The notes under the pieces are model-generated. The model ran no database searches. It saw only the letters and a program-made list of their open reading frames with translations, and was not told where the DNA came from. Both the position numbers and the translations under genes were made by a program. Below, piece after piece: positions 28,828-50,121 of a stretch of DNA of 64,000 nt (positions within the stretch are counted from its first letter, which is position 1; each line of letters starts with the position of its first letter). Source of the DNA: an uncultured Pseudomonadales bacterium (GTDB lineage Bacteria > Patescibacteriota > Microgenomatia > UBA1400 > PJMF01); NCBI GenBank assembly GCA_964393205.1, contig CAYMSV010000001.1:173764-237763 (forward strand), written 5' to 3'.

Positions 28828-28860
28828 AAAAGACTATTGAAATAATTACTTATAATTTTG

Positions 28861-28934
28861 TGAGTCGGGAGGGACTCGAACCCTCGACACTCTGCTTAAG
28901 AGGCAGATGCTCTAACCAACTGAGCTACCGACCC
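28861..28934 (-). tRNA. tRNA-Lys(CUU)
   Basis: Cloverleaf; anticodon loop CUCUUAA. Confidence 0.85.
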
Positions 28935-28965
28935 GATTTTAATTACATGATTATAACAAACAATG

Positions 28966-29038
28966 TGCCCCCAGGAGGATTCGAACCTCCATCACTGGTT
29001 CCGAAGACCATTACTCTAATCCATTGAGCTATGGGGGC
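28966..29038 (-). tRNA. tRNA-Arg(UCG)
   Basis: Cloverleaf with U8/A9 and a GGAGGTTCGAATCCTCC T-arm; anticodon loop CUUCGGA; one mismatch in the first pair of the anticodon stem. Confidence 0.7.
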
Positions 29039-29062
29039 GCTCGGTTCTGCAGATATTATAAT

Positions 29063-29280
29063 CCAAAAATATCGAAAATATAGCACGGCATCTTTCATAC
29101 CAGCTGCTTTTTTTACAGAGTAAAAAAGGAGGGTCCAAAATATAACACAGTATCTTTTGTACCAGCTGCTTTTTGCAAAGCAAAAAGACAGGGTCCAAAA
29201 TATAACACAGTATCTTTTGTACCAGCTGCTTTTTGCAAAGCAAAAAGACAGGGTCCAAAATATAGTATAATCGCTCTGTA
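29063..29280. repeat. 60-bp tandem direct repeat, about 3.5 copies, each with an internal imperfect hairpin
   Basis: 29131-29190 and 29191-29250 are identical (GGGTCCAAAATATAACACAGTATCTTTTGTACCAGCTGCTTTTTGCAAAGCAAAAAGACA). Partial or degenerate copies lie on either side. The array ends at a TATAAT box 12 nt before tRNA-Leu. Confidence 0.9.
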
Positions 29281-29281
29281 A

Positions 29282-29363
29282 GCCGAGATGGCGAAATGGT
29301 AGACGCGCACGCTTCAGAAGCGTGTGAGCTTAGCTCATGGAGGTTCGAGTCCTCTTCTCGGCA
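29282..29363 (+). tRNA. tRNA-Leu(CAG)
   Basis: Type II tRNA; anticodon loop UUCAGAA. Confidence 0.85.
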
Positions 29364-29419
29364 CAGAACTTGTCGTTTATAATAAAAGCCTATTTGAATC
29401 AGTGTTCTTTAATATTGAA

Positions 29420-29500
29420 GCCCGGGTGGCGAAATGGTAGACGCGCAGTCTTGAGGTGGCTGTGAAGCAATTCATGGAGGTTCAAGTCCTCTCCCGGGCA
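29420..29500 (+). tRNA. tRNA-Leu(GAG)
   Basis: Type II tRNA; anticodon loop UUGAGGU. Confidence 0.8.
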
Positions 29501-29629
29501 CATTTTTTATTAATGTTTTTGAGGTAGAATAAAAAGTTGCTATTTAAAATAACACTTGAACCGCAGGTGAAAGTCTGCACATCAGGTGAAACCTGAGAAA
29601 TGTGTCCAGAAGCGAAGCTTTCTGGGACA

Positions 29630-29653
29630 CCTCTCCCGGGCACATTTTTTTAT
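29630..29653 (+). repeat. exact duplicate of the 3' end and U-tract of tRNA-Leu(GAG), a tRNA 3' fragment
   Basis: CCTCTCCCGGGCACATTTTTT occurs at 29488-29508 and again at 29630-29650. Confidence 0.85.
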
Positions 29654-29676
29654 TTCTTTTGCTATGATAAAGAAAC

Positions 29677-29750
29677 GGGTAATTAGCTCAGTTGGTTAGA
29701 GCGCATCGTTTACATCGATGAGGTCATAGGTTCGAGTCCTATATTACCCA
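29677..29750 (+). tRNA. tRNA-Val(UAC)
   Basis: Cloverleaf; anticodon loop UUUACAU. Confidence 0.85.
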
Positions 29751-29806
29751 CACTCAACTTTGCTTCTTAATAAAAATCGTTTACAATACAGAAGTTAAAA
29801 AATAAC

Positions 29807-29879
29807 GCCAAGCTAGCCAAGTTGGTCACGGCACATGTCTGAAAAACATGGGATCTTGGTTCGATTCCAAGGCTTGGCA
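29807..29879 (+). tRNA. tRNA-Phe(GAA)
   Basis: Cloverleaf; anticodon loop CUGAAAA. Confidence 0.8.
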
Positions 29880-30088
29880 CGTTCTTTAAGAGATTATTTT
29901 CCCAAAACAGAGGCTAGCATCTGTTTAATGAATTTAAATAGAGCTCTAAAGATGTCTTGAATCATTATTGTTGCTCTATAATTTAATTGATCTTTTGTTT
30001 TAGCAAAAGTCTGATTTTTTTTAGTTTCAAAATCTGATGAATAGTTAGACATAAAAAGATTATAATTTGTTTTGGTGTAAATAAACAA

Positions 30089-30161
30089 GCGAGAGTAGTT
30101 CAGTGGCTAGAATGTCTCCTTGCCAAGGAGAAGGTCGCGGGTTCGAATCCCGTCTCTCGCT
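30089..30161 (+). tRNA. tRNA-Gly(GCC)
   Basis: Cloverleaf; anticodon loop UUGCCAA. Confidence 0.85.
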
Positions 30162-30190
30162 CTCTACAAAAAATAAAACTTTCCAAAAAA

Positions 30191-33467: not shown

Positions 33468-33541
33468 GGTGCGGTACCAGAGTGGTCCAATGGCGAGGTC
33501 TGCAAAACCTCCGTTCGCGGGTTCGAATCCCGCCCGCACCT
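33468..33541 (+). tRNA. tRNA-Cys(GCA)
   Basis: Cloverleaf; anticodon loop CUGCAAA. Confidence 0.85.
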
Positions 33542-33619
33542 CAACCAACTATTTTTAATTTTTTAAAATAGTTTTATTAATAAATCTTTATGTCTTTTGA
33601 CCTAAAGTAAAGAAAGGTA

Positions 33620-34921
33620 TTGATGCTAATTAAATCAATTGAGGCTCAAGAAGTTTTGGATTCACGAGGAAACCCCACGGTTGGAGTAACTTTGAAGCTT
33701 GAAGATGGAACTGAAGTTTTTTCAGCAGTTCCCTCAGGTGCTTCAACTGGTGCTTATGAAGCACTGGAGCTTCGCGATGAGGACAATACTCGCTATTTGG
33801 GTAAGGGAGTATTAAAAGCTGTAGCCAATGTTAATAATATTATTGCTCCCGAACTCATTGGTCAAGATGTTAGAGAACAAGAAAAACTTGATCAAATGAT
33901 GCTCGATTTAGACGGTACTCAGGGTAAACAAAATTTAGGTGCCAATGCTATTTTGGCAGTATCGATGGCTTGTGTAAAAGCAGCGGCCATAGTTAATAAG
34001 ATGCCTCTTTATGCTTATATAGCTAAACTCTTTGGTAATAGCACTGAAGAATTTGTGATGCCTATTCCAATGTCCAATGTACTTAATGGCGGTAAACATG
34101 CTATCGGTAGTGCTGACATGCAAGAATTTATGATTTTTCCCCTAGCTGCTCCCAATGTAGTAGAAGCAATTCGCTGGAATGCAGAAATTTTCCATCATTT
34201 AGGAAAAATTATTCAGAAAAAAGGTTGGCAAAAAACTGTTGGAGATGAAGGCGGTTATGCTCCTCCACTAGGTACCAATGAGGCTCCTTTACAATTGATT
34301 ATGCAAGCCATTGAAATGGCTGGTTATAAAGCTGGAGAAGATGTTTTCATTGCTCTTGATCCAGCAGCTAGTGAGTTTTATGAGGGTGAGGGTGAAACTG
34401 GTCTTTATGATCTAAAAACCGAGGGTAAAAAACTGACTAGTAGCGAGATGGTTAAAAAATACCAACAATGGGTTGAAGAATATCCAATTGTTTCTATAGA
34501 AGATGGTTTGGCCGAAGATGATTGGAGTGGTTTTAGTGAGTTGACTGAAGTTTTGGGTAAAAAAATTCAAATTATGGGAGATGATCTCTTAGTAACTAAC
34601 CCAGAAAGAATTCAGAAAGCTATCGATAAAAAGGCTGCTAACTCAGTGTTAATTAAACTTAATCAAATCGGCAGCGTCAGTGAGACGATTCAAGCTATTA
34701 AATTAGCTCAAAGCGCTGGTTGGACCTGTGTGGTTTCTCATCGCAGTGGCGAAACAGGAGATACCTTTATTGCCGATTTTGTAGTTGGTACAGGTACCGG
34801 ACAGATTAAAACTGGTTCAATGTGTCGCAGTGAGCGAGTGGCCAAATACAATCGTTTAATGATAATTGAGCGAGAACTAGGAGATAAGGCAAAAATTGCT
34901 AAGTTTCCTTTTAAACAATAG
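33620..34921 (+). CDS. eno: enolase (canonical, all catalytic residues present)
   Basis: SGASTG, GGKHA, VGDEGG, ALDPAASE, IEDG, GDDL, IKLNQIG, SHRSGET and KTG motifs are all present. Confidence 0.95.
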   Translation: MMLIKSIEAQEVLDSRGNPTVGVTLKLEDGTEVFSAVPSGASTGAYEALELRDEDNTRYLGKGVLKAVANVNNIIAPELIGQDVREQEKLDQMMLDLDGTQGKQNLGANAILAVSMACVKAAAIVNKMPLYAYIAKLFGNSTEEFVMPIPMSNVLNGGKHAIGSADMQEFMIFPLAAPNVVEAIRWNAEIFHHLGKIIQKKGWQKTVGDEGGYAPPLGTNEAPLQLIMQAIEMAGYKAGEDVFIALDPAASEFYEGEGETGLYDLKTEGKKLTSSEMVKKYQQWVEEYPIVSIEDGLAEDDWSGFSELTEVLGKKIQIMGDDLLVTNPERIQKAIDKKAANSVLIKLNQIGSVSETIQAIKLAQSAGWTCVVSHRSGETGDTFIADFVVGTGTGQIKTGSMCRSERVAKYNRLMIIERELGDKAKIAKFPFKQ

Positions 34922-34986
34922 TTTGTTTATTGAGAGGGGCTATATGCCCCTCTTTATTAAGCAAATTAAATTAAAAAGGATTATTT

Positions 34987-36489
34987 ATGTCTGATACTTC
35001 TCAAAAAAAGTTAGCGCTAATTATTCTTGATGGCTGGGGTCATTATAAAGATTATCCAGGCAATGCTATTAGTTTAGCTAATACTCCTAATTGGGATAGA
35101 ATGTGGCAGGAAAATCCTAAAGCCCTTTTAGATTGTTCTGGAGAAGCAGTGGGTCTGCCAGCTGGTCAAATGGGTAATAGCGAAATTAATCATGCGGCTA
35201 TTGGTTCAGGACGAGTTATTTATCAAGATTTAGTTAAGTTAAATAAAGCAGCAGCCGAAGGTTTATTGCATACTGCTCCAGCTATTGAAGAAGCCTTTAG
35301 TAGAGCCAAAAACAATTCAACAGCGCTACACATTATGGGTTTATTGAGTCCAGGTGGCGTTCACTCTCATCAGGATCACATTTTCGCTTTGATTAAAGAA
35401 GCGGCTGGCTTTGGAGTGGAAAAAATTTATGTTCATGCAATTACTGATGGACGGGACACGGCTCCCCAAAACTGTTTAGCTAGTTTTGAAAAATTAGATG
35501 AAATTTGCCAAGAAACAGGAGCTCAGCTAGCAACTATTGCTGGTCGTTATTTTGCTATGGACCGTGATCATAATTGGGAGCGAACTGATCTGGCTTATAG
35601 CGCCGTTAAGGATCGTCAAGCCCCTCAGTTTTCCAGTGCCAAAGAAGCAATTAAACATTCTTATGAAAATGGTAAAAATGATGAATTTATTGTTCCCTGT
35701 ACCATCAAAGTTGATGATGAAATAGAAGCTAAAGTTAAAAGTACTGACAGCTTAATTTTTGCTAATTTTCGCAATGATCGACCACGTCAGTTGACTGAGC
35801 GATTTTTAGAAAAAGGTCCTGAAAACATTTTCTTTGTTACCATGACTTTATACAGCGATAAATATCCGGTGGCGGTAGCTTATGGTCCAGAAAAGGTTGA
35901 ACGTACCTTGGGAGAGGTTTTGGCAGAAAACAAAGTGAAGCAATTTCGGGTAACTGAGACTGAAAAATTTGCTCATCTTACATTCTTTATGAATTGCAAG
36001 CGCGAAGAGCCCTACCCTTTAGAAGAGCGTTTTATGTTTAATAGTAATAAGGTAGAAAGTCATGCAGAAAAGCCCGAGATGAAGGCTTTAGATATTGCTG
36101 ACAAGGTGGTAGAAACTATGAACAAGGGTGAGCAGTCAGTAATTTTTACCAATATTTGTAATGGTGACATGGTTGGTCATACTGGAGATATTAGAGCTGC
36201 TGTAAAAGCAGTAGAGGCTGTAGATCAAGCTCTAGGTAAAATTGAACAAACAGCTAAAGAGCAAAATTACGTTTTGATTGTGACTGCTGATCATGGTAAC
36301 TGCGAACAAATGCTTAACGAAGATGGCAGCACAGTCACTGAACACAGTACCAATCCAGTTCCCTTTGTTTTAATTAATGGTGGCCAACTTCTTAGACAAG
36401 AAGGTATCATGGCTGATATTGCTCCCACTATTTTAAAATTATTGGCAATAAATCAACCCTCAGAAATGACTGGTCAAAGCTTGGTCTAG
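34987..36489 (+). CDS. gpmI: 2,3-bisphosphoglycerate-independent phosphoglycerate mutase
   Basis: Collinear with iPGM over its full length (ILDGWG..., TADHGN). Confidence 0.9.
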   Translation: MSDTSQKKLALIILDGWGHYKDYPGNAISLANTPNWDRMWQENPKALLDCSGEAVGLPAGQMGNSEINHAAIGSGRVIYQDLVKLNKAAAEGLLHTAPAIEEAFSRAKNNSTALHIMGLLSPGGVHSHQDHIFALIKEAAGFGVEKIYVHAITDGRDTAPQNCLASFEKLDEICQETGAQLATIAGRYFAMDRDHNWERTDLAYSAVKDRQAPQFSSAKEAIKHSYENGKNDEFIVPCTIKVDDEIEAKVKSTDSLIFANFRNDRPRQLTERFLEKGPENIFFVTMTLYSDKYPVAVAYGPEKVERTLGEVLAENKVKQFRVTETEKFAHLTFFMNCKREEPYPLEERFMFNSNKVESHAEKPEMKALDIADKVVETMNKGEQSVIFTNICNGDMVGHTGDIRAAVKAVEAVDQALGKIEQTAKEQNYVLIVTADHGNCEQMLNEDGSTVTEHSTNPVPFVLINGGQLLRQEGIMADIAPTILKLLAINQPSEMTGQSLV

Positions 36490-36522
36490 TTAATTGATTT
36501 AATAGTTGTGTTACACTAATAA

Positions 36523-36942
36523 TTGAATTACAAAACTTGCAGAAAGGATTTTATGTCAGGTTATAGTGTCAATTTAGAAGAAAAAACCATTCAGAATCAA
36601 AATTTTAGGGAGGTGCTTTATACTGCTCCTCTCACCCAATTGGTAGTGATGTCTATTGCTCCAGGAGACGATATTGGTTTGGAAACACACGATGATCATG
36701 ATCAATTTATTCGTGTAGAAAAAGGAATTGGTCAGGCAATTATTGGTGAGACTACTTATGATTTAGCTGATGGTATAGCGATAGTGATTCCTGCTGGTCA
36801 AAAACACAATGTGATTAATACTTCAAGTAGTGAAGCGCTACAGCTTTATACAGTTTATGCGCCAGCTGAACACCCAGAGGGAAAAATTCACCCAACTAAA
36901 GAAGATGCTCTCAATGACCCAGATTACGCTGATGAGCATTAA
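36523..36942 (+). CDS. cupin domain protein
   Basis: The two-His cupin motifs occur in order (HDDHDQF...PAGQKHN). Confidence 0.6.
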   Translation: MNYKTCRKDFMSGYSVNLEEKTIQNQNFREVLYTAPLTQLVVMSIAPGDDIGLETHDDHDQFIRVEKGIGQAIIGETTYDLADGIAIVIPAGQKHNVINTSSSEALQLYTVYAPAEHPEGKIHPTKEDALNDPDYADEH

Positions 36943-42550: not shown

Positions 42551-43171
42551 TTAATAGCGAAACTTACGAATAAGCCCCACTACTCGTCCTTGAATTTGAA
42601 CATTTGTTGCGTAAATTGGACTCATAGTCGAGTTGGCTGGTTCGAGACGAATGCGGGTTACTTCTTTGTAGAAACGTTTAAGAGTGGCAAGTCCGTTGTC
42701 TAGAAGTGCAACCACGATATCACCATTATTTACCTCAGGAGTTTCTTCGATTACCACATAATCGCCATCATCAATATGATCTTCAATCATTGATTTACCT
42801 TTGACTTGCAAAATAAAGGCTCTTTTTTTACCAGAAATCATTTCTGGTGAAACCTTGAAGCTCGCTTCTGGATCTTCATGGGCTTCTATAGGTGCTCCAG
42901 CGGCAATGTAGCCTAAAAAAGGCAAATCAACGCTATCAGTAATATCTAAAAAGGTTCTGTCTACCAACTCAATACCTCTAACTGCCCCCTCATGTTTACG
43001 AATCACTTTTTTGCGTTCTAGTGCTTGCAAGTGTTCGTGAACAGTGGCTAGTGAGGAAACACCAATAGAATCAGCAATCTCTCTAAGAGTTGGAGCGTAG
43101 CCATTTTTTTGAATATATTGAGCGATAAAATCGACAATTTGTCTTTGTCTTTTGTATAAAGTAACTGCCAT
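42551..43171 (-). CDS. lexA: LexA repressor
   Basis: N-terminal wHTH; S24 peptidase Ser (GKSM) and Lys; AAG cleavage-site-like motif. Confidence 0.85.
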   Translation of the reverse strand: MAVTLYKRQRQIVDFIAQYIQKNGYAPTLREIADSIGVSSLATVHEHLQALERKKVIRKHEGAVRGIELVDRTFLDITDSVDLPFLGYIAAGAPIEAHEDPEASFKVSPEMISGKKRAFILQVKGKSMIEDHIDDGDYVVIEETPEVNNGDIVVALLDNGLATLKRFYKEVTRIRLEPANSTMSPIYATNVQIQGRVVGLIRKFRY

Positions 43172-43341
43172 AGACCCGATGCTTTCACTAATTTATAACG
43201 AATATTAACCATAAAATAAACGAATTAGTCCCAAAACTCAACTAGCAATTTATGTATCAAAATATATCAAATATAAGTTTAACAGTTATAAGATAAAATT
43301 AGTACTGACATATTGTTAGAGTTCAGTTATACTTTTTATTT

Positions 43342-44016
43342 ATGACAGGAATTACAGATACAGTTTTAAACTATTTAACTAATTTTGCGACTTCGGTGTC
43401 CTTGCCCTTTTTTGTTGTTATCGGTGCAATTGCTGAAGAAATTATTGCCATCATTCCCTCCCCTTTTGTGCCATTGACTGCTGGTTCTTTAGCCATTAGT
43501 CAAAATAAAACTGTTTATTTTGTTTTGTTTTTAGCATTGGTTGGTGCTTTAGCCAAAACCTTTTCTACCTCAGTGGTTTTTTGGATTGCAGATAAATTAG
43601 AAGATTTAATTACCCATGGGAAACTTGGCAAATTTTTAGGTTTAGAGGCTAATGAAATTGAACGCTACGGCAAAATATTTTCAAAAACCAAAAGCAATAC
43701 TTTGATTCTATTTATACTAAGAGCCTTGCCTTTTGTACCTACATTGCCAGTTACTGTTGTTGCTGGACTAATTAAGATTAAGTTCAAAATTTTTGCTTTG
43801 GGTACTTTCTTAGGAATGGTGGTGCGTAATGCCTTTTATTTATTGGGAGCTTTTTATGGCCTACAACAGTTCCAGGGCTTGGTAGACAGTGTGGATACTT
43901 TAAATTCTGTTCTAGAAATAGTAATAATACTTAGTTTTTTGGGTTTTATCTTTTACATATTACGCAACAATTGGCATCGTTGGTTTATAGATAAAAAAAA
44001 GAAAACAAGAGAATAA
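43342..44016 (+). CDS. DedA/TVP38 family membrane protein
   Basis: TM topology and conserved loop region. Confidence 0.65.
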   Translation: MTGITDTVLNYLTNFATSVSLPFFVVIGAIAEEIIAIIPSPFVPLTAGSLAISQNKTVYFVLFLALVGALAKTFSTSVVFWIADKLEDLITHGKLGKFLGLEANEIERYGKIFSKTKSNTLILFILRALPFVPTLPVTVVAGLIKIKFKIFALGTFLGMVVRNAFYLLGAFYGLQQFQGLVDSVDTLNSVLEIVIILSFLGFIFYILRNNWHRWFIDKKKKTRE

Positions 44017-44024
44017 AAAGATTT

Positions 44025-45290
44025 TTATTTTTCGGCTTTTAGTTCTTGGTCAATTTCCATTAGACGATTATATTTTGCTACCCTCTCACCTCTATTGAGT
44101 GGGCCAAATTTTACATAATTAGCTCCGACTCCGACTGCCAAATCTACAATTAGAGTTTCTAGTGTCTCTCCTGTGCTATGGCTAATAACTAAATCTAATT
44201 GATGGTCTTTAATGGCTTTGATGCTTTCCATCAATTCACTGATGGTGCCAATTTGTTTTGGCTTGAGGACAACGGCATTAGCCATTTCATCTTCTTTAAT
44301 TTTATTAATTTCTGTTACCTTAGCCCCTACATGACGATAAGCAGCAATTGAAGTTGTTTTACCTAGATTACGTTGTAATAACTGCCAACTTTTTTTGTCA
44401 CTTTCAATAAAAGGATCTTCTAAATAAATAATTTTATATTTTTCTCTTATTTGTTCGTAAAATTGTAATAACTCTTTTTCAGTAAATCCTTGATTACTAT
44501 CTCTAATACGATATTTACTTGCCTCAAACAATCTGTAAGCAGAAGCCTGCAGTCCGAAGAAAACATCTTGAGCAAAGTTGTAACTAGTGGTACGAATTGC
44601 CTCAATTAATAACTCAAAGGCATCTAAATTACGATATAAGTTTGGTGTGAAGCCACCAGTTAGACCAGTAGCATGGATGGCACCCTTATTAATCAGTAAA
44701 GCTTCTAGTTTTTGCTGAATGACTGCAATCATTTCTAAAGATTTTTCTAAGGATAAGTGGCTAGCGGGAATAAGTGAAAATTCTTGAAAATCGAGATTTT
44801 TGCCACCATGTTCTCCTCCGTCAAAAGCAGTGACAATGCAGTTTGGTAAATCAATTTCTTGAATAAGATTATATTTTTTTTGAATATATTCGTAGAGTGG
44901 TAGTCCAACACTAATCGCACCAGCCTTCAAAACGGCCTGAGAGACCGCTAAAAGAGCGTTAGCACCTAAGCGACTTTTATTGGCAGTGCCGTCTAAACCA
45001 ATTAAAATTTTATCTAATTCTCCTTGAGCAGTTACTTCTTTTTCTATAACTTGAGGAGCAATAATTTGATTAATATGATTAATTGCCTTGTTTACTCCTA
45101 AGCCGAGAAACCTTTCATCTTTATCTCTTAAATATAGGGCATCACTGGGATTGTTATCAATTGGAGTGGGTATTGTAGTAATGGTAGAAAAACCATTATC
45201 TAGCCACAATAATAATTGAACAGTGGGTAGTCCCCGACTATCAAAGATCTCCTTAGCTTGAATAGCATAGATTTTGGCCATAGTTTCCAA
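44025..45290 (-). CDS. enolase paralog with degenerate active site (pseudo-enolase)
   Basis: Collinear with enolase from N-terminus (IFDSRGLPTV) to C-terminus (RGERVAKYNRLMEIDQEL), but SGASTG becomes TPIDNN, GDEGG becomes GLTGG, LDPA becomes LQAS, GDDL becomes AYRH and HRS becomes HST. Confidence 0.8.
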   Translation of the reverse strand: METMAKIYAIQAKEIFDSRGLPTVQLLLWLDNGFSTITTIPTPIDNNPSDALYLRDKDERFLGLGVNKAINHINQIIAPQVIEKEVTAQGELDKILIGLDGTANKSRLGANALLAVSQAVLKAGAISVGLPLYEYIQKKYNLIQEIDLPNCIVTAFDGGEHGGKNLDFQEFSLIPASHLSLEKSLEMIAVIQQKLEALLINKGAIHATGLTGGFTPNLYRNLDAFELLIEAIRTTSYNFAQDVFFGLQASAYRLFEASKYRIRDSNQGFTEKELLQFYEQIREKYKIIYLEDPFIESDKKSWQLLQRNLGKTTSIAAYRHVGAKVTEINKIKEDEMANAVVLKPKQIGTISELMESIKAIKDHQLDLVISHSTGETLETLIVDLAVGVGANYVKFGPLNRGERVAKYNRLMEIDQELKAEK

Positions 45291-45339
45291 GAACAGTATA
45301 TATAATTTTTAACTGCTTTAAAAGCCTGTCAAACAATTA

Positions 45340-46431
45340 TTATTTTTTTAATTGAGCTTTAAACCAGTCAACGCTTTTAATCGGACAAGGATCAATTTTT
45401 TCTAAAAATGCCAAATAAAGATTAGTAAAAGAAGTCAGGGTGATTAATTCAAAAGCCTGAGTAATTTTATTTTCAGTTTCTAGATCGACTATCATGCCAT
45501 CAATTTCTTTTTTTTCTAAAAGTTCTTTGGTAAGGGTTAGGCGCTTTTGATTTCTAGGGTGATAGAGTTTTGATTGGAAAAAAATAAAAAAATGATTTAG
45601 CGAATTGCTTTTGGGAAAAGTTAAACCTTCCAATAAATGATGGTTAATTTCTGGGATAATTTTATAATCCGCAAAAATTTTTGCATTTTCATTAAATTGA
45701 TTGCAAGCTACGTGTAATGCCCCTTCTAAAAACTCAGCTCCTACTAAAATTGGTCGTCTTTCCAAGCTGAGAAAAGCCAATAATTTTGCTTTATTTTTTT
45801 CTTGTTCAACTTCTACCTTACATTTTTCAGTAACTAAGTTAACAGTATCAACAACTTCCAACAATTGCTCTTCAGCAAAGTCTAGGAGCTTGGCTGCAGA
45901 TAAAATCACAATAAAAGCCATGATGGAATAGCCAATTGCCATTCTTGGTTGACCAGATGGATTGTGCTTAGCTTCAATTAAAAATTTTGGATATTGGTTT
46001 TTTTCAGCAAAAACGGCCAGCTCACCTCCAGCACTAATAACTGCGATTTGAGCTTTTTTAATTTTTGCAGCTTTTGCACAAGCCAAAACCTCTTCAGTGT
46101 TTCCAGAGTAACTAGACAAAATAACCAAGCTATTTTGATTAACAAAGGCGGGTAGTTTGTAATCTCGATTGATAAGCATTGGTACAGTTAGAGAATCTTT
46201 GAATAGATTGAGTACGACATCGGCACCAAGAGCACTGCCACCCATGCCGGCTACCACAATATTAGAGATTGACTTAATTTGATCTGAATCAAAGACAACC
46301 TGTTTTCTTTCTTGCCAAACTTGTTTAACTTGATCGGCAAGGCTTTCAGCACTAGCCAGTGCTCCACTGGGATCTAGTTTCTTAATTGCTTGACGATCTT
46401 CTAAGATTGAAGAATAATCATTGTTTATCAT
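45340..46431 (-). CDS. bifunctional phosphoglucose/phosphomannose isomerase (SIS domain, archaeal-type)
   Basis: GMGGSALG SIS motif; about 360 aa, two-SIS architecture. Confidence 0.65.
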   Translation of the reverse strand: MINNDYSSILEDRQAIKKLDPSGALASAESLADQVKQVWQERKQVVFDSDQIKSISNIVVAGMGGSALGADVVLNLFKDSLTVPMLINRDYKLPAFVNQNSLVILSSYSGNTEEVLACAKAAKIKKAQIAVISAGGELAVFAEKNQYPKFLIEAKHNPSGQPRMAIGYSIMAFIVILSAAKLLDFAEEQLLEVVDTVNLVTEKCKVEVEQEKNKAKLLAFLSLERRPILVGAEFLEGALHVACNQFNENAKIFADYKIIPEINHHLLEGLTFPKSNSLNHFFIFFQSKLYHPRNQKRLTLTKELLEKKEIDGMIVDLETENKITQAFELITLTSFTNLYLAFLEKIDPCPIKSVDWFKAQLKK

Positions 46432-46948
46432 TTTTTCCTTTTTCTTTTTTTAATAAATCTAAAAAAACTTTGGTATTTTGAAAGGCTAAGTTTTTTGGTA
46501 ATTTTTCAAATGAAAAAAAACGTAGCTCAGCAGCATCGTCACTAGCAATTAATTTTCCAGCTGTCACTTTCACTTCAAAAAATAAATTGATAGTAGGGGC
46601 TTGTTCTAAGCCATAGGTGTCGGGATAAGACCCCCAATATTTAATGATCTCACATTTAGCCATGGTTTCTTCTTCAAACTCTCTTTTAACGGCTTGTTCT
46701 ACAGTTTCTCCAACACTAACAAAACCGCCTACTGTATCCCAATTGCCTTGGTGTGGTGGAATTCTTCTTTTATTAAGCAAGACCTCACCTTTGTCATTTA
46801 AAGCAAGTAGAGCTACTGCCAGAGAAGGATTGTTATAAATTTTTAAACCACATCGATTGCATTCTAAACTTCCATCAAGAATTTCTAGTTCAGTTTTACA
46901 ACGTGGACAATAACGATAATTGTTTACTAAATAATTTTTAGTCTTCAT
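46418..46948 (-). CDS. NUDIX hydrolase with an N-terminal zinc ribbon
   Basis: CPRC...CNRC; Nudix box GGFVSVGETVEQAVKREFEEET. Confidence 0.8.
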   Translation of the reverse strand: MKTKNYLVNNYRYCPRCKTELEILDGSLECNRCGLKIYNNPSLAVALLALNDKGEVLLNKRRIPPHQGNWDTVGGFVSVGETVEQAVKREFEEETMAKCEIIKYWGSYPDTYGLEQAPTINLFFEVKVTAGKLIASDDAAELRFFSFEKLPKNLAFQNTKVFLDLLKKEKGKNDKQ

Positions 46949-46953
46949 TGAAT

Positions 46954-48375
46954 TTAATCCAAAGCATGAGTGTTAGATCCTTCTTGCCAATTAACTGTCG
47001 AATATTGTTTAAGTATCGACTTCAACTCTTCTTTTAATTCTTGATATTGCTCTTTAGTTTTAGCTTCAAACTTAACAGTTACATAGGGGCCATTTTGTGA
47101 AGCACGAATGATTGCCATTTTTTCAGGCAAATCCATTCTAATACCATCAATATTAGTGTATTTAGCTTTTGGCCAATGTTTTTGGAAATCTTCAGTAATT
47201 TCTTTATCAATGAGTTGAAATTTAATTTCATCAGGCAATCCCAGTTTAATTTCTGGACTGCTAATATATTGAGGTAATTCTGCCACTGCCTGACTGAGTT
47301 TAATGTCTTTTCTTTCTAAATAGCTTAATAAACGCAAACAAGCATAGGCGGCGTCATCATGTCCATAAAAATTATCCATAAAAAAGATATGACCTGACAA
47401 TTCTCCACCAAAAGGAGATCGTTCTTCTTTTACTTTAGCTTTGATAAAGGAATGACCAGTTAGCCAGATGATTCCCTCACCTCCAGCCTTTTCAATAGTC
47501 TCATGAACTTGACGTGAGCAAAGAGTGTTATAAATGATCTTACTACCTGGCAAAAAGTCCAAAACGTCTTTGGCAAACAAAGCGACTATGGTATCCATCC
47601 ACAAAATTTGTCCATCTTCATCAACCACTGACATGCGATCACCATCAGCATCAAAAGCAAAGCCTAAATCAGCACCAGATTCTTTAACCCCCTTGGCTAG
47701 GCGTTTAAGCACACTTAATTCAGTAGGATCAGGATGTCCTAGGGGAAAATCTGAATCTAGTTCGCAATTTTGTTCAATCACCTCACAACCAGCCTCTCTA
47801 AATATATCTGGATAAAAAGCTCCTCCAGCTCCATTACAAGCATCCACTACAATTTTCCATTTTTTCTTGAGAGAAAAAAGTTTAAGAAGTTGTTGATTAT
47901 AAGCTTGATTGATATTTTCTTGACGATTAGAGCCATCTCCACTTACAAAATCTTTTGTTTTGGCTATGGCTTGTAATTCTTTAATTTCTTCAGTGACCAT
48001 GGTGTCAGAATAACCAACACTCATTTTTAAACCATTAAATTCTTTAGGATTGTGGGAGGCAGTAACCATTGCTCCACCCTTAGTTTTAAATTCATAGGAA
48101 GAATAATAAACAATTTGGCTTAAGCTCAGGCCTATATCTATAGTATCAATACCACTTTCATTGAGCCCACTAATAAAAGCTTTGGTATATTTTTCACCAT
48201 TGTGGCGATTATCTCTGCCAACAGCAGCCTCTTTAATTCGCCTTTTACTAAGAAAAGTTCCATAAGCTCGGCCCAAAGTATAATAAACATTTTCATTAAG
48301 GTCTTTGTCAATTAAACCTCGCAAATCATAGCCGCGAAAAATATTTGGGTTAATGTGGTCAACAATTTGGTACAT
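46954..48375 (-). CDS. phosphomannomutase/phosphoglucomutase (alpha-D-phosphohexomutase)
   Basis: TASHNP active-site Ser loop; GDGDR metal loop; sugar-binding loop. Confidence 0.85.
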   Translation of the reverse strand: MYQIVDHINPNIFRGYDLRGLIDKDLNENVYYTLGRAYGTFLSKRRIKEAAVGRDNRHNGEKYTKAFISGLNESGIDTIDIGLSLSQIVYYSSYEFKTKGGAMVTASHNPKEFNGLKMSVGYSDTMVTEEIKELQAIAKTKDFVSGDGSNRQENINQAYNQQLLKLFSLKKKWKIVVDACNGAGGAFYPDIFREAGCEVIEQNCELDSDFPLGHPDPTELSVLKRLAKGVKESGADLGFAFDADGDRMSVVDEDGQILWMDTIVALFAKDVLDFLPGSKIIYNTLCSRQVHETIEKAGGEGIIWLTGHSFIKAKVKEERSPFGGELSGHIFFMDNFYGHDDAAYACLRLLSYLERKDIKLSQAVAELPQYISSPEIKLGLPDEIKFQLIDKEITEDFQKHWPKAKYTNIDGIRMDLPEKMAIIRASQNGPYVTVKFEAKTKEQYQELKEELKSILKQYSTVNWQEGSNTHALD

Positions 48376-48404: not shown

Positions 48405-49094
48405 CTACAGAGTTATTAAAAGAAGGTCAAGTTCACTAGCTAAGCTCAGTAAATTATGTGAGTGTTTGAGTTTATGATCTAAGTTATAAAGTTTTTGGTG
48501 AAAATTTAGCAGTTGTCTTAGTGAAAAGTTTTGCTTTTGTTTTTCAAGCTTATTTTTAACAAAAGGGTGTATTTTGACTTGGGCATCAACTTTGATAGCA
48601 ATCAAGTCACTAACTCTTTTACTAATCATGCTCAGACAAAATTCTGCAGAATCTTGTTCAATAGCTTGCTGAAGTAATAATAATTGGCCTTTTTTAGCGC
48701 TTGGTTTGGGGTTGAGTTGATCAACTAATTGCCACAGCGCCTTTCCCATTGGATAGGAGAATACTTTAGCTTGAGGAAATTTTTTTAAGTTATTTTTACT
48801 TAAGGATTTTTTTTCCCACAAAATAATATTTAAAAACTGACTAGCTTGTTGAATAGATTCAATATAGGTGCTTCTTTTTTTACTGTGAGGTAGAGAGTGT
48901 AGTTGTTCGATGATTAGACACTGCTCTTGGCCAAAGAGATCTTTAGCGAGTAAAGATTCTTCCAATTTTTGTGGACTAATTTTTTTAGCCAGCAGTGTGT
49001 TTAGTTGCTGCCCATTGCTTTGAGCTAGCTGTTTTAATTGAAACAACCTTTCTCTTGATTTGATTAAATTTTCACCATGGACAATAGTTAGCAT
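48405..49094 (-). CDS. hypothetical protein, possibly a DNA polymerase III delta-subunit-like protein
   Basis: The N-terminus LTIVHGENLIKSRERL resembles HolA N-termini; weak. Confidence 0.3.
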   Translation of the reverse strand: MLTIVHGENLIKSRERLFQLKQLAQSNGQQLNTLLAKKISPQKLEESLLAKDLFGQEQCLIIEQLHSLPHSKKRSTYIESIQQASQFLNIILWEKKSLSKNNLKKFPQAKVFSYPMGKALWQLVDQLNPKPSAKKGQLLLLQQAIEQDSAEFCLSMISKRVSDLIAIKVDAQVKIHPFVKNKLEKQKQNFSLRQLLNFHQKLYNLDHKLKHSHNLLSLASELDLLLITL

Positions 49095-49099
49095 CTTCT

Positions 49100-49759
49100 T
49101 TAATTATATAGTCTTTTTTTAAGCACAGCTCTATGCTTTTTATAATGAGGGTCAAATTTATTTACTAGTAACCAGAATTTTTTAGAATGATTGGCTTGTT
49201 GACGATGAGCTAGTTCATGAATAATGACATAGTTGATAATTGCTGGTGAATAATGAACTAGTCGCCAATTAAAATTTAAATTACCTTGACTGCTACAACT
49301 TCCCCAGCGTGATTTTTGTTGACGAATGCTAATTCTTTGATAGTTAATATCCATTTTCTCGGCAAGATCAGCAGTTTTTTGGCTTAGATATTTAGTAGCT
49401 GTGTTTTTGAGAAAGCTCTCTAGCCTAGTTTGATAAGAACCAGGTGTAATTTGATTAATGATTAGTTTTTGCCCTTCAATACTGATGCCGCTTGCTTTTT
49501 TTTGATCAGCTTCAACCACAATTTGAAATTTTTTGCCAAAAATATAAATTTCATCGTCAGCAATTTGAGTTTGTAGTTTTGCTACTTGAGCCTGTTTTTT
49601 TAGGATCCAAGTTTCTTGCTGTTTGAGAAACTTTTCAATGATTAAGTTTGGATAAAGTTTTGGAGCAGAGACCAGAACTTTGCCCTTTGAATCAATGCTG
49701 ATTCTGATAGATCTTGATCTAGGGTTTTTTTTCAACTGATAATTAAAATTTAATGCCAC
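49100..49759 (-). CDS. YgjP/DUF45-family predicted zinc metallohydrolase
   Basis: The HELAH zinc motif preceded by IINYVIIHELAHRQQANHS is typical of DUF45/WLM-like proteins. Confidence 0.65.
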   Translation of the reverse strand: MALNFNYQLKKNPRSRSIRISIDSKGKVLVSAPKLYPNLIIEKFLKQQETWILKKQAQVAKLQTQIADDEIYIFGKKFQIVVEADQKKASGISIEGQKLIINQITPGSYQTRLESFLKNTATKYLSQKTADLAEKMDINYQRISIRQQKSRWGSCSSQGNLNFNWRLVHYSPAIINYVIIHELAHRQQANHSKKFWLLVNKFDPHYKKHRAVLKKRLYN

Positions 49760-49871: not shown

Positions 49872-49955
49872 GCCGAAGTGGCGGAATGGTAGACGCGCAC
49901 GGCTTAGGACCGTGTGAGGCAACTCATGGAGGTTCGATTCCTCTCTTCGGCACCA
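49872..49955 (+). tRNA. tRNA-Leu(UAG), CCA encoded
   Basis: Type II tRNA; anticodon loop CUUAGGA; 3' CCA present. Confidence 0.85.
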
Positions 49956-49970
49956 AGAAAAATTAGTCAC

Positions 49971-50000
49971 AAAAAAACCCGCTTAATTGCGGGGTTTTTT
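49971..50000. terminator. bidirectional intrinsic terminator
   Basis: A-tract, then CCCGCTTAATTGCGGGG hairpin, then T-tract. Confidence 0.8.
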
Positions 50001-50121
50001 GAGCTCAGAACGTGACTTCGGTGAGGAAGAACCTTCTGAGATGATATTATTATAACAAAAACTATAAGGATGTCAAGTTTTTAGGAGACAAAATTGATTA
50101 AATCTGTAAATTATTGAATTT

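What the first reader, a model, noticed from the sequence alone, without database searches (positions are those of the whole stretch)
44025..45290. Second enolase paralog with a dismantled active site (pseudo-enolase) inside a sugar-phosphate gene cluster
The window has a canonical enolase at 33620-34921 with every catalytic motif intact. This 421-aa paralog is collinear with enolase end to end, but the Mg/substrate-binding signatures are substituted: the SGASTG Ser loop becomes TPIDNN; GDEGG (Glu209) becomes GLTGG; LDPA (Asp246) becomes LQAS; GDDL (Asp317) becomes AYRH; HRS becomes HST. The His159, Glu168, Lys342 and Lys396 equivalents are kept. It cannot be a conventional enolase. It sits with PGI/PMI, a NUDIX hydrolase and a phosphohexomutase, all sugar-phosphate or sugar-nucleotide metabolism. 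Two possibilities follow: a neofunctionalised enolase-fold enzyme or binding protein, or a moonlighting scaffold of the kind enolase provides in RNA degradosomes or on cell surfaces.
Basis: seen in the sequence. Interest (0 to 1): 0.65.

Follow-up and report, generated by a model that had tools for sequence, protein, structure and literature searches.

The report
Conserved dead enolase relic in Microgenomates
This gene is the original enolase of a group of ultra-small (Patescibacteria/Microgenomates) bacteria; it lost its catalytic machinery step by step after a second, ordinary enolase took over glycolysis, yet it is still kept under strong selection, so it must now do something other than enolase chemistry.

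Summary
ORF 44025-45290(-) (probable start ATG 45281, 418 aa) is a full-length enolase-fold protein. It lacks the general acid Glu209, two of three Mg(I) ligands (Asp246, Asp317), the Ser42 lid and Arg371. No register shift rescues them.

It is not a decaying pseudogene. More than 65 sequence clusters and about 20 GTDB species carry intact orthologs (59-98% identity). dN/dS is 0.03-0.07, the same as for the working enolase in the same genomes.

The direction of the "paralog" story is reversed. By synteny and phylogeny this gene descends from the native Microgenomates enolase, in an ancestral holA-PGM/PMM-PGI-PEPS/PPDK-ENO-iPGM cluster. The intact enolase at 33620-34921, with its iPGM, belongs to a different, ordinary bacterial lineage.

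Decay was stepwise. Relatives with canonical sites come first. "Tier A" lost only Asp208/Glu209, and its PPDK neighbour is already dead. "Tier B", which includes the window, also lost the metal ligands and both flanking genes.

Former active-site positions now vary as much as the protein average. An Arg at position 167 or 318, plus Lys344, offsets the lost negative charge.

Best reading: a pseudo-enolase kept for a non-catalytic role. That role is unknown. I found no description of it in the literature.

The parts
44025..45290 (-). Enolase-like gene ('tier B' pseudo-enolase). The listed ORF is 421 aa from TTG 45290. The probable true start is ATG 45279-45281, giving 418 aa.
45150..45167 (-). 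Codons 42-47, TPIDNN. This is the former Ser42 Mg(II)-binding lid (L1, SGASTG in enolases). It is the most variable segment of the clade.
44658..44663 (-). Codons 210-211, Leu-Thr, in place of Asp208-Glu209 (general acid, GDEGG -> GLTGG).
44547..44549 (-). Codon 248, Gln, in place of Mg(I) ligand Asp246.
44334..44339 (-). Codons 318-319, Tyr-Arg, in place of Mg(I) ligand Asp317 and Asp318. Arg319 is the subclade's charge-compensating arginine; other subclades have Arg at position 167 instead.
44172..44180 (-). Codons 371-373, His-Ser-Thr, in place of His370-Arg371-Ser372 (phosphate-binding HRS).
44415..44420 (-). Codons 291-292, Glu-Asp. These are the retained Glu290 (Mg(I) ligand) and Asp291.
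45295..45332 (-). Promoter-like hexamers (TTGACA ... AAAAAT / TATACT) in the 58-nt gap between PGI and the enolase-like gene. Consensus match only.
45340..46431 (-). Bacterial-type PGI/PMI (SIS + bact-PGI_C). It lies immediately upstream in all orthologous loci.
46418..46948 (-). NUDIX hydrolase. It is inserted between PGM/PMM and PGI in the window's subclade and in L007, L026 and L174, and is absent from most tier B loci.
46954..48375 (-). Phosphoglucomutase/phosphomannomutase, a conserved member of the ancestral cluster.
48405..49759 (-). holA-like (48405-49094) and YgjP-like (49100-49759) genes, the conserved head of the syntenic block. A 12/12 promoter-like site lies at 50076-50049.
33620..34921 (+). 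Canonical enolase with all catalytic residues (TIGR01060 614 bits). It belongs to the ordinary bacterial enolase lineage ('C2'), not the native CPR lineage.
34987..36942 (+). Canonical iPGM (34987-36489; nucleophile motif GNSE) and a cupin (36523-36942). They travel with the C2 enolase as a cassette in tier B genomes.
42551..44016 (.). LexA (42551-43171, -) and a VTT/DedA-type membrane protein (43342-44016, +). In tier A and canonical relatives, iPGM lies between the enolase and LexA; here it is deleted.

Best explanation
The gene is a pseudo-enolase: the direct descendant of the native glycolytic enolase of Microgenomates, still in its original place in an ancestral holA-PGM/PMM-PGI-PEPS/PPDK-ENO-iPGM cluster.

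In the common ancestor of the Woese-/Pacebacteria-like lineages studied here, an ordinary bacterial-type enolase+iPGM pair became available. That pair sits at 33620-36489 in the window, and it took over 2-PGA <-> PEP conversion. The native copy then lost catalysis in steps:
1. First the general acid (Asp208/Glu209; 'tier A'), while its PEPS/PPDK neighbour lost all its motifs.
2. Then, in 'tier B' (the window), the Ser42 lid and Arg371, and in most lineages (the window included) the Mg ligands Asp246 and Asp317. The flanking PPDK-like and iPGM-like genes were deleted.

The emptied, formerly very acidic pocket lost about five negative charges. This is partly offset by a new Arg (position 167 or 318) and usually Lys344 (inferred).

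The protein keeps the enolase fold and is held by purifying selection as strong as on the working enolase. It therefore performs a role that needs the fold and surface, but not Mg2+, 2-PGA binding or dehydration. Most likely this is a non-catalytic partner, scaffold or regulatory role that the native enolase already had and the incoming enolase could not replace (inferred).

Shown: ancestry, stepwise residue loss, selection, and co-existence with an intact enolase. Inferred: lack of activity, charge compensation, and the non-catalytic nature of the retained function. The partner or ligand is unknown.
For: - Fold and family: Pfam and TIGR01060 hits. AF2 model pLDDT 82, pTM 0.87. The best Foldseek matches are E. 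coli enolase structures, TM 0.91.
- Residue loss without register shift.
- Conserved clade: 68 clusters at 59-98% identity, mean column identity 78%, about 20 GTDB species.
- Selection: dN/dS 0.03-0.07. The unsaturated pair L014/L015 has dS 0.39 and omega 0.042. The canonical enolase gives 0.014-0.06 in the same genome pairs.
- Synteny series: canonical-site enolase inside PGI-PPDK-ENO-iPGM in Levy-/Curtissbacteria; tier A with only Asp208/Glu209 lost; L094, a tier A locus with the flanks already deleted; tier B with flanks deleted and a canonical eno-iPGM-cupin cassette 5-8 kb further along the contig, beyond LexA-CobAT-CTPS.
- Phylogeny: tier B 100% bootstrap; A+B 100%; both nested in a CPR-native clade (99%) that excludes the window's canonical enolase, which groups with ordinary bacterial enolases. 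Twelve native-lineage signature residues are retained.
- A tier A genome also has the ordinary eno-iPGM pair: P0084 (MGD9129129.1) and P0157 (MGD9129598.1), same sequencing run SRR11698124.
- Module decay: tier A PPDK-like genes have lost the ATP-binding, phospho-His, PEP-binding and Cys motifs. They are 24-27% identical to each other, against 55-67% among intact ones.
- Relaxation of the pocket: catalytic positions differ between subclades (His159/Tyr; His370/Gln/Asn/Gly; 317 Cys/Tyr/Asp/Ser/Gly). The L1 lid is the most variable segment. From the per-position values, I estimate by hand that about 20 former active-site positions have a mean entropy near the protein average of 0.76.
- Charge compensation: 81 of 83 tier B sequences have Arg at 167 (60) or 318 (21; one has both), and the two alternatives are nearly exclusive.
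Against: - No activity, binding or interaction data exist, so 'dead' rests on established enolase enzymology. From my own knowledge: yeast E211Q and metal-ligand mutants lose many orders of magnitude of activity.
- A core set of pocket residues stays invariant (Glu168, Glu290, Asp291, Lys342, Lys393, plus new Thr152 and Asp155). This could serve a new, metal-independent chemistry or ligand binding rather than only fold stability.
- Cys at 317 is found in 89% of tier B and may have arisen more than once, which hints at selection on the pocket.
- The PGI-enolase-like adjacency is universally kept.
- No partner protein has been identified.
- The AF2 coordinates could not be inspected, so pocket geometry and surface conservation are untested.
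- The tree is neighbour-joining only.
Confidence: 0.6

Rival explanations
1. Neofunctionalised enolase-fold enzyme or metabolite-binding protein acting in sugar-phosphate or sugar-nucleotide metabolism with PGI and PGM/PMM. It would use the retained Lys342/Lys393/Glu168/Glu290/Asp291 together with new Thr152/Asp155/Arg167 or Arg318/Cys317, without the two Mg2+.
For: - An invariant core of pocket residues and clade-specific fixed replacements: Thr152 100%, Asp155 100%, Thr209 90%, Cys317 89%, Ser371 95%.
- A positive charge is always kept in the pocket.
- The gene always sits 25-60 bp downstream of PGI.
- dN/dS is about 0.04.
Against: - The adjacency is inherited from an ancestral glycolytic cluster that contains a normal enolase, so it carries no specific functional signal.
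- Several pocket positions differ even between close relatives: 317 is Tyr or Cys and 344 is Lys, Ile or Arg within the >=82%-identity window subclade. His159/Tyr, His370/Gln/Asn/Gly and position 42 (Asp/Ser/Ala/Asn/Thr) also vary.
- The substrate lid L1 is the most variable region.
- Two tier B members still have Asp246 and Asp317. There is therefore no single conserved new catalytic constellation.
Confidence: 0.2
2. Regulatory or structural heterodimer partner of the canonical enolase. Enolases are obligate dimers, so the dead subunit would pair with the active C2 enolase and modulate its activity, stability or localisation.
For: - Both proteins co-occur in every tier B contig that extends far enough (seven loci), and in at least one tier A MAG.
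- The N-terminal strands and the C-terminal NRGERxAKYNRL region are highly conserved in tier B. From my own knowledge, these regions contribute to the enolase dimer interface.
Against: - The two proteins are only 37% identical and come from different enolase lineages.
- No interface analysis or co-folding could be done here.
- The genes are in different transcription units 9 kb apart and on opposite strands.
Confidence: 0.12
3. It is still a working enolase with an unconventional active site, for example other residues or water replacing Glu209 and a different metal-binding mode.
For: - It passes the TIGR01060 equivalog cut-off (351 vs 300 bits), and NCBI names some orthologs phosphopyruvate hydratase.
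- Lys342 (base), Glu168, Glu290, His159 and Lys393 are retained.
Against: - The general acid, two of three Mg(I) ligands, the Mg(II) Ser lid and Arg371 are all missing.
- A fully canonical enolase is present in the same genome.
- Catalytic positions vary among orthologs, which is unlike any functional enolase set examined here: 33 of 33 syntenic and 40 of 41 ordinary enolases have an identical signature.
Confidence: 0.03
4. It is a functionless relic on its way to loss: an expressed or unexpressed pseudogene that has not yet been disrupted.
For: - Its former neighbours (PPDK-like, iPGM-like) decayed and were deleted.
- Active-site positions are relaxed.
Against: - The ORF is intact and full length in every full-length ortholog recovered, across lineages down to 59% identity.
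- dN/dS is 0.03-0.07, equal to that of the essential glycolytic enolase.
- 120 of 421 columns are invariant.
- It is retained in genomes under 1 Mb. By contrast, the truly decaying PPDK-like gene shows 24-27% identity among tier A genomes.
Confidence: 0.03

Closest known systems
Enolase / phosphopyruvate hydratase (EC 4.2.1.11; TIGR01060, Pfam PF03952 + PF00113), e.g. E. coli enolase PDB 6bfy
   Same: - Same two-domain fold, collinear end to end, 35-37% identity.
- Retains Lys342, Lys393, Glu168, Glu290, Asp291 and His159.
- It descends directly from the native enolase of its lineage.
   Different: - Lacks Glu209 (general acid), Asp246 and Asp317 (Mg(I) ligands), the Ser42 lid (Mg(II)), Arg371 and Asp318.
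- Former catalytic positions vary among orthologs.
- A separate intact enolase does the glycolytic job.
'Tier A' enolase-like proteins of Woese-/Pacebacteria (P0069-P0120; loci L007-L009, L094, L174). I know of no description of them.
   Same: - Sister or parent grade of the window protein (A+B clade 100% bootstrap, about 50% identity).
- Same genomic position.
- Also co-exists with an ordinary eno-iPGM pair in at least one MAG.
   Different: - Tier A keeps all metal ligands, the Ser42 lid and Arg371, and lacks only Asp208/Glu209.
- It is usually still flanked by a (dead) PPDK-like gene and a Ser->Thr iPGM-like gene.
Moonlighting enolases, e.g. E. coli enolase in the RNA degradosome (PDB 5ohg, 2fym) or surface plasminogen-binding enolases
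   Same: They show that the enolase fold can serve non-catalytic partner-binding roles. These structures are among the best fold matches.
   Different: - Known moonlighting enolases remain fully active enzymes. Here catalysis appears to have been given up, and the two roles would be split between two genes.
- No partner, RNase E-type binding segment or export signal was identified here (not tested).
Degenerate glycolytic paralogs kept as pseudoenzymes, e.g. PGK-like and GAPDH-like flagellar proteins of trypanosomes (PMC4106842)
   Same: A glycolytic-enzyme homolog with degenerate catalytic residues is retained alongside an active enzyme.
   Different: - Different enzyme family and a eukaryotic context.
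- Here the dead copy is the native gene and the active one an incoming lineage, in a bacterium with a very small genome.
Enolase superfamily (mandelate racemase / muconate lactonizing enzyme / MAL subgroups; Pfam MR_MLE_C)
   Same: Weak, sub-threshold similarity of the barrel domain (27.4 bits vs cut-off 29.4). The shared ancestry is a TIM-like barrel with a conserved metal site.
   Different: The defining three acidic metal ligands at the ends of strands 3-5 are reduced to one. There is no match to any specific subgroup.

Membership tests
Enolase (phosphopyruvate hydratase, EC 4.2.1.11) | Two-domain enolase fold (N-terminal alpha+beta domain plus C-terminal barrel), collinear with family profiles | tested here: met
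   PF03952 1.5e-37 and PF00113 1.3e-51. TIGR01060 351 bits against a cut-off of 300. Foldseek TM 0.91 to 6bfy.
Enolase (phosphopyruvate hydratase, EC 4.2.1.11) | Three carboxylate ligands of the conformational Mg2+ (Asp246, Glu290, Asp317; E. coli numbering) | tested here: not met
   Gln248, Glu291 and Tyr318 in the window protein, so only one of three is kept.
Enolase (phosphopyruvate hydratase, EC 4.2.1.11) | Ser42 lid loop (SGASTG) binding the catalytic Mg2+ | tested here: not met
   TPIDNN. The loop is the most variable segment in the clade.
Enolase (phosphopyruvate hydratase, EC 4.2.1.11) | Acid/base pair: Lys342 (base) and Glu209 (acid) | tested here: not met
   Lys343 is present, but Glu209 -> Thr211 and Asp208 -> Leu210.
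Enolase (phosphopyruvate hydratase, EC 4.2.1.11) | Substrate phosphate/carboxylate binders His159, Gln167, Arg371, Ser372, Lys393 | tested here: not met
   His, Gln and Lys are kept. Arg371 -> Ser and Ser372 -> Thr.
Enolase (phosphopyruvate hydratase, EC 4.2.1.11) | Catalysis of 2-phosphoglycerate <-> phosphoenolpyruvate | not testable with these tools
   Needs an enzyme assay or complementation.
Pseudoenzyme (catalytically disabled homolog retained by selection) | Clear homology to an active enzyme family, with loss of residues essential for catalysis | tested here: met
Pseudoenzyme (catalytically disabled homolog retained by selection) | Retention under purifying selection across species (not a pseudogene) | tested here: met
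   dN/dS 0.03-0.07. 68 clusters and about 20 species with intact ORFs.
Pseudoenzyme (catalytically disabled homolog retained by selection) | An active counterpart covers the enzymatic function in the same genome | tested here: met
   Canonical enolase at 33620-34921, and in L010, L012, L014, L015, L022 and L005.
Pseudoenzyme (catalytically disabled homolog retained by selection) | Experimentally shown lack of the ancestral activity | not testable with these tools
   Inference from residue loss only.
Degradosome-type or other moonlighting enolase scaffold | A defined binding partner, such as an RNase E/Y segment that docks on the enolase dimer | not tested
   No partner search was possible, and no co-varying neighbour gene was found beyond the ancestral cluster.
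Enolase superfamily, non-enolase subgroups (MR, MLE, MAL etc.) | Subgroup-specific catalytic motifs and profile score above threshold | tested here: not met
   MR_MLE_C 27.4 bits, below the cut-off of 29.4. All NCBIfam subgroup hits are far below their cut-offs.

The most novel reading that the evidence does not exclude
The native enolase of these ultra-small bacteria had an essential second, non-glycolytic function, such as a scaffold in RNA processing, a cell-envelope or host-contact role, or a metabolite-independent regulator. An incoming ordinary enolase could not provide it. Tier A and tier B proteins would then be natural 'separation-of-function' alleles: the fold is kept for that second function while catalysis is erased. 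The many other degenerate enolase-like cluster representatives seen here (73 of 150) would mean that this has happened repeatedly in related organisms (lineages not checked).
Probability: 0.4. Interest if true: 0.72.

Novelty: new variant of a known kind. Interest (0 to 1): 0.55.

Why it matters
1. Annotation. Several orthologs are named 'phosphopyruvate hydratase' or 'enolase' in public records, and the protein passes the TIGR01060 cut-off. Pathway reconstructions of Patescibacteria can therefore count a dead protein as enolase. In genomes where only this copy is binned, lower glycolysis would be wrongly called complete.

2. Evolution. This is a well-resolved natural series of xenolog displacement of a three-gene glycolytic module. 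It includes intermediate states: canonical, then general acid lost, then neighbours dead, then neighbours deleted and metal site lost. One member is selectively preserved.

3. Biology. Genomes under about 1 Mb rarely keep useless genes. A dead enolase held at dN/dS of about 0.04 points to an unrecognised non-catalytic role of the enolase fold in bacteria. It also offers a clean handle, free of glycolytic activity, for finding that role.

Tried and rejected
- Register-shift rescue of catalytic residues. Rejected by pairwise, multiple and profile-to-PDB alignments.
- Pseudogene. Rejected by dN/dS and ORF integrity.
- Matching 'longest contig' lengths between tier A and canonical hit lists to show co-occurrence. 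No matches for tier A, so uninformative.
- Tetranucleotide comparison of L007 (tier A contig) and L090 (canonical eno contig from the same sample). Correlation was 0.977, but L007 is just as similar to the unrelated window (0.985), so this is inconclusive.
- Metagenome scan with a tier A profile. The derived patterns were too general. It returned mostly canonical enolases, and only L094 and L095 were informative.
- Literature searches for patescibacterial or bacterial pseudo-enolases found nothing specific. Jaffe et al. 2020 (PMC7304191) note only that Microgenomates enolases fall into a large native cluster plus fragmented groups suggestive of lateral transfer.
- The AF2 model gave confidence and secondary structure only.
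- Maximum-likelihood tree software was not available. I used neighbour-joining with Kimura distances and 100 bootstraps instead.
- I considered His206 (E. coli position 204, conserved in tiers A and B) as a substitute general acid. It lies five residues upstream on the same strand, probably at the barrel bottom. I did not pursue it.
Full report
**1. Observation.**
The window is about 34% G+C and carries 15 tRNA genes. Its closest relatives in public data are labelled Candidatus Pacebacteria or Woesebacteria, that is Patescibacteria/Microgenomates.

ORF 44025..45290(-) encodes 421 aa from a TTG. It matches both enolase Pfam domains end to end. It even passes the NCBIfam enolase equivalog cut-off, at 351 bits against 300, while the canonical enolase at 33620..34921 scores 614 bits. 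The two proteins are collinear and 37% identical.

Pairwise, multiple and profile-versus-PDB alignments agree, with no register shift. The codons were verified. In E. coli numbering:
- SGASTG -> TPIDNN
- Asp208-Glu209 -> Leu-Thr
- Asp246 -> Gln
- Asp317-Asp318 -> Tyr-Arg
- Arg371-Ser372 -> Ser-Thr
- His159, Gln167, Glu168, Glu290, Asp291, Lys342, His370 and Lys393 are kept.

All orthologs begin at MAKIY. The real start is therefore probably ATG 45281, giving 418 aa.

The AF2 model is confident overall (pLDDT 82, pTM 0.87). Confidence is low in loop segments at residues 161-166, 206-219 and 254-266, which include the former Glu209 motif. Its best structural matches are bacterial enolases, with TM 0.91 to 6bfy.

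**2. It is a conserved, selected gene.**
A search of 5.8 billion proteins found 68 clusters at 59-98% identity that share the degenerate pattern. I call these 'tier B'. A GTDB scan found the gene in about 20 species.

Tier B alignments have 78% mean column identity and 120 invariant columns. Pairwise dN/dS is 0.03-0.07. The unsaturated pair L014/L015 has dS 0.39 and omega 0.042. This is indistinguishable from the canonical enolase in the same genome pairs, at 0.014-0.06. The pseudogene alternative is rejected.

**3. Where it comes from.**
In every tier B locus the order is YgjP-holA-PGM/PMM-(NUDIX)-PGI-ENOLIKE-(VTT)-LexA-CobAT-CTP synthase. A canonical enolase+iPGM+cupin cassette lies 5-8 kb further along the contig.

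The same block exists in Levybacteria, Curtissbacteria and other Microgenomates, as holA-PGM/PMM-PGI-PEPS/PPDK-ENO-iPGM-...-LexA. There the enolase at that position has a completely canonical signature.

A third group, 'tier A' (P0069-P0120, about 50% identical to the window protein), sits at the same position. It is flanked by PPDK-like and long iPGM-like genes and has lost only Asp208/Glu209. L094 is a tier A gene whose flanks are already deleted.

A neighbour-joining tree (74 sequences, 417 columns, 100 bootstraps) gave these results:
- tier B is monophyletic (100%);
- A+B is monophyletic (100%);
- both are nested inside a CPR-native enolase clade (99%);
- the window's canonical enolase and its counterparts in tier B genomes fall outside that clade, with ordinary bacterial enolases.

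Twelve residues specific to the native lineage are still conserved in tiers A and B.

The 'degenerate paralog' is therefore the native gene, and the intact enolase belongs to a second lineage. This fits the earlier remark that Microgenomates enolases form one large native cluster plus fragmented groups suggestive of lateral transfer (PMC7304191).

At least one tier A genome also carries the ordinary eno-iPGM pair. P0084 (MGD9129129.1, GCA_050123235.1) and P0157 (MGD9129598.1) carry the same organism label, have protein accessions 469 apart, and come from the same run, SRR11698124. A second pair, P0070 and P0206, co-occurs in two samples, but its linkage is unresolved.

**4. The module decayed, but the enolase piece was kept.**
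In tier A genomes the neighbouring PEPS/PPDK-like protein has lost the ATP-binding motif, the RSSATAEDL block, the phospho-histidine motif, the GSNDLT motif and the catalytic Cys. These proteins are only 24-27% identical to each other, against 55-67% among intact ones.

The tier A iPGM-like protein has Thr in place of the nucleophile Ser in four of the five copies examined, one in each of the three genomes. The longer copies also carry a Pro-rich N-terminal extension.

In tier B both neighbours are gone. By contrast, the enolase-like gene stays tightly constrained.

**5. What the pocket looks like now.**
Among 33 syntenic and 41 ordinary enolases, the 20-position catalytic signature is identical in all but one, which has Ala at position 208.

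In tier B the invariant or near-invariant positions are Glu168, Glu290, Asp291, Lys342 and Lys393, plus new Thr152, Asp155, Thr209 (90%), Cys317 (89%; Tyr in the window) and Ser371 (95%).

The variable positions are:
- position 42;
- His159/Tyr;
- Gln167/Arg;
- position 208;
- 246 Asn/Gln/Asp;
- position 318;
- position 344;
- His370/Gln/Asn/Gly;
- position 372.

Some of these differ even among relatives that are at least 82% identical. The L1 lid is the most variable stretch of the protein, with entropy 1.62 against 0.29-0.87 in enolases. From the per-position values, I estimate by hand that the mean entropy over the former active-site positions is about the protein average of 0.76.

Eighty-one of 83 tier B sequences carry an Arg at either 167 (60 sequences) or 318 (21 sequences), with one carrying both. 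Most also have Lys at 344. About five acidic residues have been lost. This reads as internal charge compensation of a pocket that no longer holds two Mg2+. That is an inference; the geometry was not inspected.

**6. Mechanistic reading.**
Established enolase enzymology requires Glu209 (yeast Glu211), the three Mg(I) carboxylates and the Ser lid. This is my own knowledge, not tested here. The combined loss makes 2-PGA dehydration implausible.

Three observations favour a non-catalytic role for the fold:
- selection is as strong as on a core enzyme;
- the pocket and lid are relaxed;
- the neighbouring enzymes decayed in parallel.

That role is probably one the native enolase already had and the incoming enzyme could not supply: a partner, scaffold or regulator. 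A new metal-independent enzyme or ligand-binding function remains possible, because a core of pocket residues and Cys317 are conserved. A heterodimer with the canonical enolase is another untested variant.

**7. Known or new.**
Six literature searches found no description of a bacterial or patescibacterial pseudo-enolase. Public records name orthologs either 'hypothetical protein' or 'phosphopyruvate hydratase'.

A profile search of 1.84 billion cluster representatives showed that 73 of the 150 best hits have non-canonical catalytic signatures, some far more degenerate than this one. Enolase decay may therefore be recurrent in this part of sequence space. Lineages were not checked.

I classify the finding as a new variant of a known kind: a pseudoenzyme derived from a glycolytic enzyme.

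**8. Limits.**
- There is no biochemical evidence.
- The tree is neighbour-joining only.
- dS is saturated for most pairs.
- Genome-level co-occurrence for tier A rests on one MAG.
- The retained function is unidentified.

Noticed in passing
L007:7810-15201, L008:8032-12990, L009:8119-13381, L174:7724-13268: In 'tier A' genomes all three genes of the lower-glycolysis trio at this locus are aberrant. The PEPS/PPDK-like gene has no catalytic motifs and diverges very fast. The enolase-like gene lacks Asp208/Glu209. The long iPGM-like gene has the nucleophile Ser replaced by Thr (GNSE -> GNTE) and a 100-170 aa Pro-rich N-terminal extension. L007 has two iPGM-like copies.
   Followed up: partly
L101:11273-12310 (- strand), next to L101:10001-11245: A short (~349 aa) second enolase-like ORF lies tail-to-tail with a canonical syntenic enolase. 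It is 30% identical, has GVEGA instead of GDEGG and Ser372 -> Gly, and resembles the PRK08350-type short enolase-like proteins.
   Followed up: no
proteins P0250-P0399: 73 of the 150 best 50%-identity cluster representatives to the tier B profile have non-canonical catalytic signatures. Several are extremely degenerate (P0259, P0286, P0312, P0333, P0342, P0399), and many are unusually long (559-888 aa; possible fusions or gene-call artefacts). This suggests recurrent enolase degeneration. Lineages were not checked.
   Followed up: no
proteins P0016, P0017 (tier B): Two tier B members nested next to the window subclade still have Asp246 and Asp317, although they lack Glu209, Arg371 and the Ser lid. 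This implies either several parallel losses, with convergent Cys at 317, or a reversal.
   Followed up: partly
L095:10001-11257: An intermediate enolase at the syntenic position has GVEGG (Asp208 lost, Glu209 kept), Ser42 -> Tyr and His370 -> Cys.
   Followed up: no
window 45279-45290: The mechanically listed TTG start (45290) adds three residues (MET) that no ortholog has. ATG 45281 is the likely start. A TTGACA promoter-like hexamer lies at 45332-45327 in the 58-nt PGI-enolase-like spacer.
   Followed up: yes
window 50049-50076 (- strand): A perfect 12/12 sigma-70-type promoter-like site with a TG extension lies upstream of the YgjP-holA-PGM/PMM-NUDIX-PGI block, just after a bidirectional terminator-like hairpin at 49978-49993 and tRNA-Leu (49872-49955).
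   Followed up: no
L010, L013, L015, L021-L024, L029-L032 etc.; L016 (CP011212.1): Many GTDB record titles for loci that are plainly syntenic with this Microgenomates region read 'uncultured Pseudomonadales/Gammaproteobacteria bacterium'. The complete genome CP011212.1 is titled 'candidate division TM6'. These organism labels look unreliable.
   Followed up: no
window 28860-30162: A dense tRNA cluster (Lys, Arg, Leu, Leu, Val, Phe, Gly) sits within 1.3 kb. There are 15 tRNA genes in the 64-kb window, including tRNA-Cys immediately upstream of the canonical enolase (33468-33542).
   Followed up: no
window 33620-36942 versus L022:11835-15163: The canonical enolase of tier B genome L022 is only 58-59% identical to the window's canonical enolase. 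The dead copies are 63% identical, so the working enolase has diverged at least as much as the dead one. In the NJ tree the L022 copy does not group with the other tier-B-genome canonical copies, so it may be a separate acquisition.
   Followed up: partly
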